Positions 505-49,319 are shown, counted from the stretch's first letter. The stretch is 64,000 nt of DNA from Eledone cirrhosa (GCA_964016885.1 OZ024740.1:298034001-298098000); one strand, 5' to 3'. Numbers and translations: made by a program. The notes: generated by a model from the letters alone, not told the origin.

Positions 505-1677
505 TGAGCTCAAGCCGTTTCGACGGCTAATTCTGGACTAAAGGAAAATTTTTATCCTGGTATATGAATAGCCGAGCTTCTCAGGGGGTAATTCCATATA
601 TGGTAAAAGTGATTGTCACAAGGATTGGTCAAAAGTTTGTTGTTGAGACACATAATTCTATCATGGCAATTTGTGGAAGGAAGGGGTAGCTGAACCTGCC
701 AGTAGAAGAAAGAGGGAGAGGGAGTGGAGGAAACCCAGACGTGCGTTGATAGTGCCAACTACAGCAGGGCAGGAGGTCAAGCAAGTATACTAGGGAGGGG
801 GGGGGAGGAAGTCGAAACAATAAGTAAATCAATATGGAGTAAATATATAGAAGAATACCAAGAATGTTAAAAATATAAAATTTCTGGTTACTATTCCCTA
901 ACGACAGTCATCAAGTCTCTCACTGGTACTGCTAAACTATAGAAAAGTTTACTAGGTGGGACGGAATTGTAATGAGACCATTTTAAGAGTTAGTAGTAAT
1001 CAACCGAGTATATCTTACGGTGACAGGTCAACAAGTGGGGGGCCAAAATACTAAAGAAACTACCACGAAATAATAATTCAGAGTCCCGAAACTAATACGA
1101 AATAAATGTTTCTACCCTAGGCACAAGGCCAGCAACCACCCAGTGCAAAAAATAAACTAATACGAAATAATAATTCAGAATCCCGAAAATGAATACTAAT
1201 ACTATCTCTAAGGGTGCCGCTATATTGTTACTCCATATTGATTTACTTATTGTTTCGACTTCCTCCCCTTCCCCCTCCCTAGTATACTTGCTTGACCTCC
1301 TGCCCTGCTGTAGTTGGCACTATCAACGCACGACTGGGTTTCCTCCACTCCCTCTCCCTCTCCCTCTTTCTTCTACTGGCAGGTTCAGCTACCCCTTCCT
1401 TCCACAAATTGCCATGGTAGAATTATGTGTCTCAACAACAAACTTTTGACCAATCCTTGTGACAATCACTTTTACCATATATGGAATTACCCCCTGAGAA
1501 GCTCGGCTATTCATATACCAGGATAAAAATTTTCATTTAGTCCAGAATTAGCCGTCGAAACGGCTTGAGCTCAGCCGTCAGGGTCCTACTTGTTCCTATT
1601 ACCCACTCTACTACCCTAAGTATTGAGTACTTTGGTGCTTTATGCTCCACCTGGTTCCTTACCACATTTCCTTCGTT
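505..1677. mobile_element. Family A element, long inverted pair (505-842 minus; 1228-1677 plus, with complete HHR region and long tail)
   Basis: ~340-bp near-perfect inverted repeat, also visible as duplicated translations in the ORF track. Confidence 0.88.
1489..1584 (+). ncRNA. Family A variant hammerhead (CTGAGAA core, large helix II, GUC site)
   Basis: acccc-CTGAGAA-gct cggcta..tagccg tc-GAAA-cggct tgagctc agccg-TC-agggt (ggggt in most copies). Confidence 0.6.
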
Positions 1678-2849
1678 ATATATATATATTTTATATATAT
1701 ATATATATTTTCAATCACATATATTTTTATTTGTTTGACCCGAATTGCTTGATCGTTTTTTTTTTTACTGTGCGGATGATTAGTTTAACCACCATCTCAG
1801 TGTGTTTGGCCTTTAATGTATGTTGTAGCTCTAATTCATATGAATTATCGAGCACTTGCCACAACTCGGAAGTGTTTTTCGTTAATTCCTGAGCTGAAAT
1901 TCGATTCTCGCTAATTTATATATAATATATATATATATATATATATATATATATATATATATATATATATATATATATATATATATATATATATATATAG
2001 AGTGTGTGTATGTATGTATATATATATAAATATGTGTGTGTATATATGTATGTATGTATATATAGCAATAAATGTGAAGACTAAAATCCGAGAGGGATCG
2101 ATAAGGATTATATATACTAGCAGAAAAATCACCCTTCGGGTGGTTTTCTGTTAGCATGTGTAGTGTGCATATATATATTATATGCAAATATACATGCATG
2201 TAGATGTGATATATCAAATAAAATCGTAATTGACTATATGCACAGAAATTGAAGTAAAGTAATCCATGATACATTTCTGTAAATAAAGTAATCGTGATAC
2301 ATTTTAAAAAGACGATATTATATATAAACTGCATTACGGTGAAATGTAATGCAACCTTATATAACGATGCAAATATATGGATGTTTATATAAACGATGTA
2401 ATAAGTGTTCTGATATAAACAAACGCTAACCAGAAGTGTAGATTTTGAAAATTTTAAAAGAAGTGAATCTTAAAATAAGTAATCATTATATATAAGAATA
2501 TTTATGTTTAATCAACAGCTACGAAATTTAGTAATATTCATTCATTATTTATTCAAAGTAATCTAACTTATTTAACTAACGGGATAAAATTTCTTTAAGG
2601 GTACGCGGGTATGTGGAATGTTTGGCCACTTACTTTCGTAGGCAGGCAGATTCGTTGATTGTATCACAAGAACACTAATTATCGAAACCAACGAAAGTCC
2701 ATTCTATTTACTTCCATAAACGTGTCTACATGTATGAATATGCATAGATGTAAAGAAGACCGTTTACTCCCCAGTCTACTCACCATCAATAACTACCCTA
2801 AACATATATACACGAACATTACACATATATACACTAGATGACAACTACA

Positions 2850-2978
2850 ATCTTCCCATATAAGGAAGTACCCTTGACAAGTTCGGCTATTTATTTACCA
2901 GGCTAAAAATTCTTATTTAGTCCAGAAATAGCCGTCGAAACGGCTTGAGCTCTGCCGTCGGGGTCATACTTTTTCCTA
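2850..2978 (+). mobile_element. Family A diverged copy with complete HHR region and short-type end
   Basis: Homologous to 1470-1598; ends ...TTTTCCTATATA. Confidence 0.8.
2863..2976 (+). ncRNA. Family A variant hammerhead (TTGACAA core, possible U3-A8 compensatory pair, GUC site)
   Basis: aagta-ccc-TTGACAA-gtt cggctattt..aaatagccg tc-GAAA-cggc ttgagctct gccg-TC-ggg gtca tactt. Confidence 0.6.
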
Positions 2979-3086
2979 TATATATATATACACACACACA
3001 CAAACAAGCAAGTAGGACCGTCAAACACACATCCGAACGCAGACACACCTAGAACAAACGCAAAGCAATCATCGAATGCCCTGTGT

Positions 3087-3406
3087 CAGTGATTCCCAAC
3101 GTGAAGCGCATGCCCCACGGTGGAGCAATTTTAATATTCAAGGAGGGCAATTTGAAAATGATGTTAATGAGAGCAAACTTCAGATTTTACCTCATTACTT
3201 TTACACCAAGGCAACTTTGGAACAAATTACTGTCGGAAACTCCTGTCTCACCTCCGCCACATATGTTATTATGCATCTGGCATCACTCATACGCCAATTT
3301 GTTTACACTTTGTAGTTGATCATCGCTGCTTTCATATCAAAGTGGGGCATATAAATGTTTGAAATGTTGAGGTGGGGCATGGGGCACAAAAGGTTCGGAA
3401 CCACTG
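3087..3406. mobile_element. hAT (Charlie-like) MITE
   Basis: CAGTGATTCCCAAC / GTTCGGAACCACTG termini; partly matching TSD CCCTGTGT / CCCTATAC. Confidence 0.6.
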
Positions 3407-46794: not shown

Positions 46795-48527
46795 TGATCG
46801 AGATATTTAATCCTAGCTGGTTCGATTCAACTTGTTGGAAATAATCGTCTCCCCCACCCCCATACCACTTATTGATTTTTTTTCACACACATACCCCTCA
46901 CCCCCACCCCCTACACACACACCATCCGCTATTAATTTTTACTAATCTATCTCCGGCGAAATTTTATTTTATGTGGTAACATTCATGCGACAATTAATTT
47001 TCTTTATACATTAAAAAACATTATACCTGACAACAAAGTACATTACTAGAAATCCCATATGTTATAAAATAAATAGGTTGCGTTGGGGTTTCAATATGTA
47101 AACTAAACGATTAGTTTTGGTTTTTAAAAATATCAAGGAAACAAACTAGAAAAATTAGCGATTTTCCACCCACCACCCACTTATCCACCCACCCCACCCC
47201 GCTTCTGCTTATTTTCCTGTCCCCTAGCATTTGGAACCCGAGAGTAAAAGTGCACTTAACCCCTCTGTGTGTAATTCTAATGAGAGCTGATGAGGTTGAG
47301 ATGCGTCAGTGCTTTGATTTTGTAACTTTCGTAATCTCCATTTTGTAAGTTTGGTCTCCGTTTGTTTTCCTTTTATTTTCCTTGCCTTATCACTCCTACA
47401 AGCCAACACACTCCTGTCTTAATCTTCTGTTCTTTTCACCCACCCGACACCACAACTTTCCGTTTCTCCGTAGCGGCTGCTATTTTCCGCCCTTAGAGGT
47501 ACTTTTACCTGACTTCCATGCTGTTATTTTTTTTTAAACTGATATTTAAGATAGTTTACAAACAAAAGTTATAAAATGATGGAAATATTTTTTAAAATGA
47601 TAAAAACAAAACTAAGTAACGAAAAGAAGGGGGGTGGGTAAAGAAGGGCAGATGTGGTTGTAGAGGAAAGTAAAGGAATGGACTATAAATGCAATAAATG
47701 AGAAGAAAAGGAGGGGAAGAGCAAAGACCGTGGGGAAAAGGCATGGATTATTAGACAACGGAAGAAAGAGAGGAGAAGTGAAAGGGTGACAGACTCTATA
47801 CCTAGGACGGAGTGCTGTTTCGGCTACGCAGACAAAACTACAAAGGCATTTCCGCGAACAATGGCCAACGACTCCTGCTGTAACAACCTTCGGGGCTCTG
47901 ACGTTCCGATTCCATCTGAGGGCGGTGAATTTGGCAGTATCAATAAAGTGTCGGACAACATGCTTTGCATCATCGAGTTATGGTCCTTTACGTTCTGAGT
48001 TCAAATCCCGCCGAGGTTAGCTTTGCCTTTCATCGTTACGGGGTCGATAAATAAAGTACCAGTAACACACTGGGGTCGATTTAATCTACTTTCTCCTTCT
48101 CCAAAATTGTTGGTCTTGTGCCTAAAAGAGAAACCATTCGGCTGTTTTAACTTCTTCCTCCTCTTCTTCGCCCACTTATTCCTGAGAGGGTCGTGTGGGC
48201 AGAGTCCTTAAACACTTCTTCCATATAGTCTTGTCAGAAGCAACCGTCTCCAACTGATCCGGGTGGATCCCCAAGTGAGGCCTATTTTTCTATGAACTGC
48301 TTGTTAAAATAATCACTAGTACAAAGTCTGCAGTTCTAAGGAAACTATTTAAATGACAATGGGCTTCATCATTCATCACAATATAAAAGTTCAGAAAAAT
48401 CTTTTTCTTCTGATTAATTGTTGCAAAATGAAGACGTTGCTAAAAAACTGTAATATTGAAACTCTAAAGCATTTTGACCTTGAACAAAAATTGAGACGAT
48501 GTTGCTTCCAAATGCACTGCAAATATA

Positions 48528-48601
48528 CAGGGTGTCCCAAAATTGTATACATGTTTCAACAGCATTCTAATAAATGTGTATACATTTTTGGGGACACCCT
48601 G
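48528..48601. mobile_element. Tiny Tc1/mariner MITE; related copies at 44228-44353
   Basis: TA-CAGGGTGTCCCAAAA...TTTTGGGGACACCCTG-TA. Confidence 0.75.
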
Positions 48602-48614
48602 TATATATATATAT

Positions 48615-48828
48615 AACAAAGATGGTGTGGTAATATACCAGGTGGACCATGGACCATAACGCACCAGAGTACTCAATACTTAGGGTAGTAGAGTAGGTAA
48701 TGTGAAAAGAGTCAGGACCCTGACGGCTGAGCTCTGGTCGTTTCGACAGCTAGATCCAGATCAGCTAGATCCGGATCTAGCAGTCCAAACGGCCGGAGCT
48801 CAGCCGTCGGGGTCCTAACTCTTTTCAT
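48615..48828. mobile_element. Family A (subfamily A') inverted pair
   Basis: Variant GAGCTCCGGCCGTTT..GACAGCTAGATCC; same two end points as the other pairs. Confidence 0.8.
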
Positions 48829-49319
48829 ATATATATCCAGGGAGTGTAACGTGAAGTTACCAGGTGAGCACTCGATGTCATGACTGCAGCTTTTGATTCC
48901 AGAGTCGGGCCAGACCGATACAGATCGAACCATAAGCTTATCAATAGCGAAACGCGCGTCACCACCAATCAATAAACGTAATGAAGACATAACAAATCGT
49001 CCTTGTATTATATATATATATATATATATATATATATATATATGAGACATACTCAACTGACAAGAATGACTTCAGTTTGAGGTGCTTGATCCTCTGTCAG
49101 CAATTGCCTATACATGGTGAATACTGTAGTTTATTAAAACGGAATGTAATCACTCTTGGAAGCCATTTATTGGAATGGTCTGGTTAAATAAAGATCTATT
49201 CATTCAGAATGCACTCTTCGAATATTAAAATGTCTTGGTAGGCAATTCAGAACCATCAAGTTCTTATGTTGTTGGATTTAACTACAAACGCGAACAGTAT
49301 ATTACACTATCTTTATTCA

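What the first reader, a model, noticed from the sequence alone, without database searches (positions are those of the whole stretch)
1605..48905. Covarying hairpin motif ACTC-N(11-28)-GAGTRC shared by the long 3' tails of unrelated PLE families
Seen about 30-65 nt before the long end in family A (cACTC..tattGAGTAC, 1605-1630), B (tACTC..tattGAGTAC, 31975-31995), C (tACTC..tatcGAGTGC, 7407-7428), E (tACTC..tgttGAGTGC, 7633-7657 minus), 21835-21862 (tACTC..taGAGTGC) and 48868-48905 minus (gACTC..atcGAGTGC). Two apparent compensatory versions exist: GCTC..tatcGAGCAC (1828-1855) and ACAC-agcta..tagct-GTGTAC (16095-16131). The surrounding tail sequences are otherwise unalignable by eye. Inference: a conserved cis-acting RNA element for RT/endonuclease binding or initiation. 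I do not recognise it as a described PLE motif.
Basis: partly seen in the sequence, partly recalled or inferred. Interest (0 to 1): 0.8.

Follow-up and report, generated by a model that had tools for sequence, protein, structure and literature searches.

The report
Twin RNA hairpins set retroelement ends
Penelope-like jumping genes of the Hydra group carry two copies of a short hairpin-forming motif just upstream of their protein gene, their inserted copies end a few bases before one or the other motif, and the motifs likely fold as RNA hairpins that tell the element's reverse transcriptase where to start copying from each side of the cut target DNA.

Summary
It is a bulged hairpin: lower stem RCUC/GAGY, a 2-nt 3' bulge, a covarying upper stem, then NCU. 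All families whose gene I could trace are Hydra-clade Penelope-like elements (PLEs). In protein-selected metagenome loci the upper stem pairs (2 bp or more) in 32 of 45 candidates, against at most 6 in other registers. Full-length elements carry two copies (H1, H2) between the hammerhead and the ATG. Element ends fall just 5' of H1 (short end) or H2 (long end): 202 of 293 versus 66 expected. So the PLE 'tail' is H1 plus spacer. H2 was predicted behind long ends and found in families A, C, D, E and F, reduced in B, not found in G. 56 of 59 inverted insertions have one long and one short end, and four have arms that cannot be copies of each other. Likely mechanism: each hairpin positions one internal priming event (twin priming); this is untested at the bench. 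The ACAC/GTGTAC 'variant' is not homologous. Five literature searches and Rfam showed no description of the motif.

The parts
1605..1630 (+). H1 hairpin, family A (ACTC / TAC..GTA / TT bulge / GAGT-AC), 46 nt before the long end at 1677
   Evidence: family traced to a Hydra-type ORF and H2
1494..1585 (+). Hammerhead-like core of family A (variant core, long stem II) upstream of H1 on the same strand
   Evidence: pattern match only, below Rfam detection in the window
218..243 (-). H1, family A, in an inverted insertion 172-482 with one long and one short end
19113..19138 (-). H1, family A, in inverted long+short insertion 19063-19264
48669..48694 (-). H1, family A
43978..44019 (-). H1, family A, internally rearranged copy in inverted insertion 43932-44139
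1828..1855 (+). H1, family D, GCTC/GAGC lower stem, 7-bp upper stem, TC bulge
   Evidence: H2 (TCTC/GAGA, long loop) in other copies
7403..7428 (+). H1, family C (register revised from 7408); inverted insertion 7108-7479 with short and long end
   Evidence: H2 and ORF
7633..7654 (-). H1, family E; inverted insertion 7568-7901 with long and short end
   Evidence: H2 and ORF
7801..7842 (+). Hammerhead core in the short arm of the family E insertion
21836..21862 (+). H1, family F (CAG/CTG upper stem, TA bulge); inverted insertion 21729-21914
   Evidence: H2 and ORF
31975..31995 (+). H1, family B, 41 nt before the long end
   Evidence: reduced H2 and ORF
31909..31947 (+). Type I hammerhead of family B upstream of H1
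18752..18772 (-). H1, family B, second copy
48868..48905 (-). H1, family G; no H2-bearing copy found
34105..34184 (+).
   Evidence: family c19
25775..25784 (+). 3' arm of a further H1 (family c4, GAGC-CC); its 5' arm is lost in TA-rich sequence
36074..37699 (-). 5'-truncated, broken Hydra-clade PLE ORF (RT with YRDD; GIY-YIG with CxCX5C, CxxC, CxH)
14316..14358 (-). Hammerhead of the same autonomous family in a short-end copy that lacks H1
16095..16131 (+). NOT part of the motif: ACAC..GTGTAC hairpin in one unit of a 310-bp hammerhead-bearing tandem array, on the strand opposite to its hammerhead

Best explanation
Hydra-clade Penelope-like elements carry two copies of a covarying bulged-hairpin motif between their hammerhead and their start codon, their genomic ends fall 3-10 nt 5' of one or the other copy, and each copy likely folds in the RNA and positions the element's protein to start reverse transcription there. 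Shown: the consensus (lower stem RCUC/GAGY, 2-nt 3' bulge UY, upper stem of 2-7 bp of free sequence, then NCU), the twin arrangement, a TA dinucleotide 4-9 nt 5' of nearly every hairpin, the end positions, and the one-long-one-short rule of inverted insertions. Inferred: on a read-through transcript (3' UTR - hammerhead - H1 - H2 - next ORF), a protein, probably a dimer, binds H1 and H2. Its GIY-YIG domains cut both strands of a (TA)n target. Each new 3' end anneals to the UA patch in front of one hairpin and is extended, giving one cDNA with the tail (from H2) and one without (from H1). The two cDNAs are joined head to head at their far ends. This is twin priming, hard-wired by two RNA signals. 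The PLE 'tail' of this clade is then simply H1 plus the spacer up to H2.
For: Register-specific upper stem: 10 of 15 host-genome clusters pair 3 bp or more with a 2-nt 3' bulge, against 5.5% of 660 background ACTC..GAGT pairs. In metagenome loci chosen by protein only and anchored without regard to the stem, 32 of 45 pair 2 bp or more and 25 of 45 pair 3 bp or more; other registers give at most 6 and 2. First upper pair: C-G 21, U-A 17, U-G 2. None of 20,000 arm permutations reached the observed upper-stem pairing. On an RT tree of 32 H1 copies, both sides change together: P1.1 has 4+4 one-side changes but 4 joint, P2.1 6+6 but 6 joint, P2.2 13+11 but 14 joint. Two hairpins 55-70 nt apart in 15 of 22 metagenome 5' regions that have any, 71-162 nt apart in host families. 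Ends: first unmatched base -1 to -4 from a hairpin in 9 metagenome elements, several of them joined to non-(TA)n DNA; 202 of 293 host ends within 12 nt 5' of a hairpin versus 66 expected if any TA were used. H2 was predicted behind the long end before it was looked for; family A gave 400 matches with 0 control, and 29 of 30 rows (24 places) carry GAGCAC, which was not in the pattern. A TA lies at -9..-4 in 34 of 35 hairpins, against 58 of 180 background windows. 56 of 59 uninterrupted inverted insertions are long+short (p 6e-14 against random pairing). In L037, L085, L090 and L103 the longer arm has the short end and the shorter arm has the tail, so neither arm is a copy of the other. G-U pairs outnumber A-C 11 to 4, which favours the sense strand. 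A Poseidon PLE in vitro cuts and extends both target strands, starts RT at two internal sites that bound the tail, needs RNA 3' of those sites, and is predicted to be a dimer (PMC11167929).
Against: No binding, priming or expression data. The hairpins are weak alone: folding z-scores of nine tails run from -1.55 to +0.24. Predicted pair probabilities do not pick strand or RNA over DNA: 0.63/0.60/0.57/0.58 for 36 metagenome copies, 0.29/0.40/0.30/0.27 for 12 window copies. Family B has only a reduced H2 (4-bp stem, no bulge or upper stem) yet a sharp long end, and its short ends scatter from -3 to -19. Family F's H2 offsets range from -3 to -11. No H2 copy was found for family G. 14 of 33 metagenome 5' regions and 9 of 19 3' regions had no full hairpin; many of these look truncated, but I did not test each. 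I saw no hairpin in 2 of 6 published Hydra consensus sequences. Many inverted insertions are symmetric and also fit fold-back. In one search, pairing at P2.1 was required by the caller, so only one search is unbiased for that position. The in vitro precedent is from another clade.
Confidence: 0.62

Rival explanations
1. The motif acts in single-stranded DNA. The GIY-YIG endonuclease recognises the hairpin in a DNA intermediate (tandem or circular cDNA) and cuts at the TA just 5' of it, so the ends are cleavage sites and not RT starts.
For: The endonuclease prefers AT-rich DNA, and the Drosophila Penelope endonuclease needed the tail for recognition (as cited in PMC11167929). PMC8557442 attributes the tail to endonuclease-mediated resolution. 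DNA parameters fold the hairpin about as well as RNA parameters. The TA patch could be a cut site.
Against: In vitro, the tail boundaries of PAc are RT start sites on an RNA template. The loops run from about 4 to 110 nt, which rules out recognition in double-stranded DNA. The G-U bias favours the sense strand, whereas first-strand cDNA is antisense. The long+short rule and the mutually non-nested arms need extra steps.
Confidence: 0.15
2. One priming event at the long end, then the cDNA folds back and copies itself, stalling at the H1 hairpin and jumping to the other target end.
For: Many insertions are near-perfect palindromes with equal arms. Self-priming was proposed for inverted Penelope insertions (PMC3846280). 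It predicts long+short pairs.
Against: In 4 of 7 clearly asymmetric insertions the longer arm ends short and the shorter arm carries the tail, which fold-back cannot make. Both ends have the same offset from a hairpin. ORF-bearing arms end short in metagenome loci L208, L210 and L233.
Confidence: 0.12
3. The hairpins serve translation, transcription start or RNP packaging in the 5' UTR; ends fall there only because the hairpin blocks priming further 3' and the UA patch beside it is exposed.
For: H2 lies about 15-60 nt before the ATG, and family B keeps a sharp long end with a reduced H2.
Against: Other TA sites in these AT-rich UTRs are not used. H1 is far from the ATG yet has the same structure and the same end offset. 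Family D keeps both hairpins with no ORF within 1.5 kb.
Confidence: 0.08
4. The motif is a relic half-hammerhead: Hydra-clade hammerhead stem III is often ACTC-n-GAGT.
For: File S2 of PMC8557442 lists that stem III in several Hydra elements.
Against: No GAA precedes the motif. GCTC/GAGC and TCTC/GAGA versions break the invariant A15.1-U16.1 pair (established hammerhead core, recalled). A complete hammerhead lies separately upstream.
Confidence: 0.03

Closest known systems
Hydra clade of EN+ Penelope-like elements (Craig et al. 2021, PMC8557442)
   Same: Protein motifs, C-terminal GIY-YIG, hammerhead in the pLTR, (TA)n targeting, inverted insertions with a tail at one end. The motif itself can be read in 3 of their 6 consensus sequences, with a near match in a fourth.
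   Different: The passages I read describe no tail structure ('stem-loop' 0 and 'hairpin' 0 hits). The tail is given as 30-40 bp and attributed to endonuclease resolution; here it is 55-160 nt and delimited by two hairpins.
PAc Poseidon element, internal RT initiation (Frangieh et al. 2024, PMC11167929)
   Same: Two internal RT starts bound the tail, both target strands are cut and extended, RNA 3' of the starts is required, and a dimer is predicted.
   Different: Different clade. There the starts lie in an 'AC-rich stem loop' inside the ORF, and no conserved or duplicated signal was defined. The figures and supplementary figures were not visible to me.
L1 twin priming (recalled, not tested here)
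   Same: Two target ends each prime cDNA on one RNA and the products join to give an inversion.
   Different: In L1 it is an occasional by-product with the second primer at variable internal sites. Here both starts are at fixed, structurally marked sites, and long+short is the rule among inverted insertions (56 of 59).
RT-recruiting stem-loops: LINE/SINE 3' stem-loops (e.g. eel UnaL2), hepadnavirus epsilon, telomerase RNA boundary elements (all recalled)
   Same: A small bulged or looped helix whose structure, more than its sequence, would fix where an RT starts.
   Different: No sequence relation; Rfam has no match at the motif. The hairpin lies 3' of the start, so the signal that sets an end is left out of that end's product. 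It also occurs as a pair.
Metazoan non-LTR retrozymes (bioRxiv 10.64898/2026.07.22.740005)
   Same: The 16095 family is a 310-bp hammerhead-bearing tandem array of this kind.
   Different: It lacks the motif on its hammerhead strand; the preprint text has no 'hairpin', 'stem-loop' or 'tail'.

Membership tests
Hydra-clade PLE | Single RT ORF with C-terminal GIY-YIG endonuclease | tested here: met
   Window ORF pieces and the 750-aa frame of L005; YIG in the C-terminal part
Hydra-clade PLE | CxCX5C linker, CxxC and CxH around the E and N residues | tested here: met
   Window EN has CNCRNRSNC, CNLC, CLH; 70, 76 and 79 of 79 aligned relatives
Hydra-clade PLE | RWK motif and DKT in place of DKG | tested here: met
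   RW[KR] 72 of 79, DK[TS] 79 of 79; DKT in L005; RWR in family A
Hydra-clade PLE | Absence of the CCHH motif in the endonuclease | tested here: inconclusive
   Not seen by eye in the window EN; not tested by alignment to other clades
Hydra-clade PLE | Canonical hammerhead in the pLTR | tested here: met
   Rfam Hammerhead_1 above gathering score in L233 only, 1 of 12 loci (on the minus strand, inverted copy); core patterns with stems in the others; cleavage not tested
Hydra-clade PLE | Insertion into (TA)n | tested here: met
Hydra-clade PLE | Placement in a tree with named Hydra reference proteins | not tested
   Reference proteins were not available as session sequences; the tree has no named references
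Covarying structured nucleic-acid element | Compensatory changes on both sides, specific to one register, recurring on the tree | tested here: met
Covarying structured nucleic-acid element | Acts as RNA and on the sense strand | tested here: inconclusive
   G-U 11 versus A-C 4 favours sense; folding energies do not discriminate
RT-initiation signal | Fixed distance to element ends | tested here: met
RT-initiation signal | Binds the element protein and is needed for priming | not testable with these tools
   needs in vitro assay
Twin priming | Two arms independently templated | tested here: met
   4 insertions with mutually non-nested arms; 56 of 59 long+short
Hammerhead ribozyme (the motif itself as stem III) | GAA 5' of the stem and an invariant A-U first pair | tested here: not met

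The most novel reading that the evidence does not exclude
Hydra-clade PLEs integrate by programmed double priming: a dimeric RT-endonuclease grips two copies of one RNA hairpin and reverse-transcribes from both ends of a double-strand cut at once. The tail and the head-to-head structure of Penelope elements in general would then be the footprint of paired RNA signals, with other clades using other paired signals (the non-Hydra family here has both ends just before a repeated ATATCG).
Probability: 0.5. Interest if true: 0.88.

Novelty: new variant of a known kind. Interest (0 to 1): 0.78.

Why it matters
The one-sided tail and the inverted structure of Penelope insertions have been described for two decades without a mechanism, and the only active PLE in vitro left its RNA recognition signal undefined. 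This gives a 20-30-nt signal with compensatory pairs, present across distant animal hosts, that predicts both element ends to within a few bases, so the mechanism can be tested with simple stem mutants. PLE RTs are the closest retroelement relatives of telomerase, so how they pick an internal start bears on template definition in that lineage. In practice the motif defines Hydra element boundaries for annotation, and it would be the minimal cis-signal for any PLE-based insertion tool.

Tried and rejected
Rfam scan of the whole window: only microsatellite-driven miRNA matches in the listed top 150 of 412; no family at the motif in 12 loci or in a close scan of L195. MAFFT alignment of 28 hairpins did not align the 5' arms, so no covariance model or tool-based pair count was built on it; arm-anchored counts were used. 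A reference from L153 proved to be a single-copy chimera, so its end counts (13 copies at -8, 12 at -7 and 15 at -67) were dropped and are absent. In one search, 49 of the 91 misses come from one reference with a low-complexity stretch (c24, probably nonspecific; kept in the count), and the -65 and -85 misses coincide with TA runs inside the references. ACAC/GTGT, ACCC/GGGT, ACTT/AAGT and ACTG/CAGT lower stems show no positional peak. My first hammerhead finder missed variant cores, so I give no genome-wide fraction of hammerhead-bearing families with the motif. Supplement search of PMC11167929 returned nothing. Pfam gives no family for the Hydra proteins above cut-off. 14 of the 77 metagenome loci were left out, mostly because their match reached neither end of the protein.
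Full report
OBSERVATION. All eight stretches are in the window as described, 32-65 nt 5' of a (TA)n run. The window lies in a 3.0-Gb animal genome, G000, which is full of small insertions into (TA)n. To test chance I fetched 160 evenly spaced 10-kb stretches. They gave 1151 junctions in 522 clusters. ACTC-N8..45-GAGTRC occurred in 0,0,0,5,7,6,4,3,0,1,0 clusters per 10-nt bin from the junction; the reverse-strand motif gave 0,1,1,0,0,1,1,3,3,1,1. 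A relaxed structural descriptor gave 87 copies in the 30-79-nt bins and none at 0-29 or 80-89; reversed and complemented controls gave at most 3 per bin. The spacers between motif and end are unalignable among the window's families.

STRUCTURE. Inside it the arms pair again, but only if two bases on the 3' side are bulged out: 10 of 15 clusters have 3 bp or more in that register, against 5.5% of 660 background pairs. The motif is RCUC / upper stem / loop / upper stem / UY bulge / GAGY / NCU. For an independent test I took relatives of the window's protein and fetched 77 metagenome loci by protein alone; 63 were analysed. Anchoring only on CTC and GAG-N-R-C, 32 of 45 distinct candidates pair 2 bp or more and 25 pair 3 bp or more in the same register; other registers give at most 6 and 2. 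The first upper pair is C-G 21 times, U-A 17, U-G 2. The full motif occurred in 19 of 33 5' regions and 10 of 19 3' regions, in 0 of 33 and 0 of 19 reverse strands, and in 1 of 33 ORF interiors. On an RT tree, changes on the two sides coincide: joint changes 4, 6, 14 and 17 against sums of 8, 12, 24 and 27 for the first lower pair and the three upper pairs (P2.1 pairing was required by that caller, so one search is the unbiased count). The first lower pair is G-C, A-U or U-A, so the GCTC/GAGC copy at 1828 is a true compensatory version. The ACAC/GTGT copy at 16095 is not: it has no bulge, its hammerhead is on the other strand, and it belongs to a 310-bp tandem family. Against a strong fold: z-scores are only -1.55 to +0.24, and energies do not choose strand or RNA versus DNA; G-U pairs exceed A-C pairs 11 to 4.

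CLADE. The window holds a broken ORF at 36074-37699 (minus) with the Hydra-clade marks given in section 11 of PMC8557442. Families A, B, C, E and F all continue into ORFs 38-70% identical (tblastn segments) to that family's protein. Family D showed no ORF within 1.5 kb and family G was not traced. A second abundant (TA)n-inserting, hammerhead-bearing family (window 32766-33240) has a non-Hydra ORF and no such hairpin. Reading File S7 of PMC8557442 by eye, the motif is present in Hydra-2_Amil (coral), Hydra-2_Ajap and twice in Hydra-1_Ajap (sea cucumber), is a near match in Hydra-1_Crog, and was not seen in Hydra-1_Obim or Hydra-1_Amil. Six 9-mers of its 3' arm hit the 584-kb supplement 7 times: 4 in Hydra UTRs and 3 elsewhere, in the Naiad and Chlamys files.

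TWO COPIES, TWO ENDS. Full-length elements carry the hairpin twice between hammerhead and ATG: 15 of 22 metagenome 5' regions with any hairpin have two, 55-70 nt apart, and so does the window's autonomous family. The 3' terminal copy of an element leaves its own 5' UTR sequence 1-4 nt before H1 or H2 in 9 metagenome elements, also where the flank is not (TA)n. I therefore predicted an H2 just past each long end in the host genome. Family A: 400 matches, 0 control; 29 of 30 rows show a complete H2 arm 6 nt after the junction, followed by the ATG. E: 78 matches, 7 of 8 loci with the GAGCRC arm and only 1-2 upper pairs. C: 4 matches, with GAG included in the pattern. F: 8 of 12 loci intact, 2 mutated, 2 microsatellite. 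D: H2 with TCTC/GAGA and a long loop. B: only a 4-bp GCAC/GTGC stem. G: no such copy. Over 17 references, 202 of 293 (TA)n junctions begin within 12 nt 5' of a hairpin, mostly at -5 to -10, against 66 expected if any TA were used; a chimeric reference found was removed first. A TA lies at -9 to -4 in 34 of 35 metagenome hairpins, against 58 of 180 background windows. The tail of this clade is H1 plus the spacer to H2.

INSERTION ANATOMY. Of 59 uninterrupted inverted insertions, 56 have one long and one short end, 2 are short-short and 1 is long-long (p 6e-14). For eight references the long end was defined from a known copy, not from H2. Six further pairs with TA runs inside were set aside; all were long+short. 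Among 31 pairs examined for arm length, seven were clearly asymmetric. In L031, L047 and L061 the longer arm carries the tail. In L037, L085, L090 and L103 the longer arm ends short and the shorter arm carries the tail. In those four each arm holds sequence the other lacks, so both were copied from a full template. Many other pairs are symmetric and do not discriminate.

MECHANISM. Shown: structure by covariation, duplication, end positions, the TA patch, the long+short rule, non-nested arms. Inferred: the protein binds each hairpin on a read-through RNA, both target strands are cut, each 3' end anneals to the UA patch before one hairpin and is extended, and the two cDNAs join head to head. 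This fits the in vitro behaviour of PAc, which cuts and extends both strands, starts at two internal sites that bound the tail, needs RNA 3' of them, and is predicted to be a dimer. I put this at 0.62, endonuclease cleavage of a DNA hairpin at 0.15, fold-back at 0.12, a translation or packaging role at 0.08, and a relic hammerhead half at 0.03.

WHAT IS KNOWN. Papers seen: PMC11167929, parts 1-2 of 4 of the text plus an empty supplement search (figures not visible). PMC8557442, passages, section 11, and supplement parts 1, 2, 52 and 53 plus one search. PMC4209133 and PMC3846280, passages. bioRxiv 10.64898/2026.07.22.740005, part 1 of 5 and passages; its supplements are closed. Five searches and Rfam showed no description of this hairpin. 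Subscription papers, Repbase notes and the PAc supplementary figures, which draw its stem-loop, were out of reach and could bear on novelty. L1 twin priming, LINE stem-loops, epsilon and telomerase elements are recalled, not checked. An earlier unchecked note of this scan (e1-9578672) reports the same stem-bulge-stem in another genome; it was seen after my analysis and is not counted as support. Its listed summary does not mention the second hairpin or the end rule.

VERDICT. A real structured cis-element of Hydra-clade PLEs, not found described in the sources I could search, that occurs as a pair and predicts both element ends. It works like an RT-positioning stem-loop with built-in twin priming; function is untested. 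New variant of a known kind; interest 0.78.

Noticed in passing
window 32766-33240; L092:1825-5400: A second abundant (TA)n-inserting, hammerhead-bearing PLE family with a non-Hydra ORF (no tblastn hit to P0061; GIY-YIG; C-X4-C-XX-C linker). It has two ends about 60 nt apart, lacks the hairpin, and both ends lie just before a repeated ATATCG, possibly another paired signal.
   Followed up: partly
window 15872-16184; L322-L333: One unit of a 310-311-bp hammerhead-bearing tandem array family, often arranged as inverted blocks; 15,901 pattern matches in the genome. It looks like a non-LTR retrozyme.
   Followed up: partly
L153:4311-4440 (G000:C1:100004311): Single-copy chimera in which the long end of the non-Hydra family is joined exactly 8 nt 5' of a family D hairpin.
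   Followed up: partly
window 1494-1561 and 2874-2941: The family A hammerhead has the U3-A8 core variant (C3-A8 in some copies) with a stem II region of about 56 nt.
   Followed up: no
L276-L283 (G000:C1:91.476-91.487 Mb): Family A occurs as head-to-tail arrays of full-length units with a period of about 3.54 kb.
   Followed up: partly
window 36074 downward; L001-L030: The autonomous family has an unusually long (about 2 kb), AT-rich, internally repetitive 3' UTR compared with 100-400 nt in the metagenome Hydra elements.
   Followed up: no
window 27055-32036 and 28116-30655: Nested inverted duplication several kb long, bounded by family B ends (short at 27055, long at 32036).
   Followed up: no
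window 59340-60518 minus: Intron-free 392-aa open frame with a 2OG-Fe(II) oxygenase domain (PF13532, E 5e-35); AlkB-like by recall.
   Followed up: no
window 7985-9007 minus: Fragment of a non-LTR (RTE-like by recall) RT with weak RVT_1 and DUF6451 matches, interrupted by (TA)n.
   Followed up: no
L187 and L181 5' regions: H2 with a loop of about 100 nt containing microsatellite-like sequence; the stem and bulge are kept, so loop length is unconstrained.
   Followed up: partly
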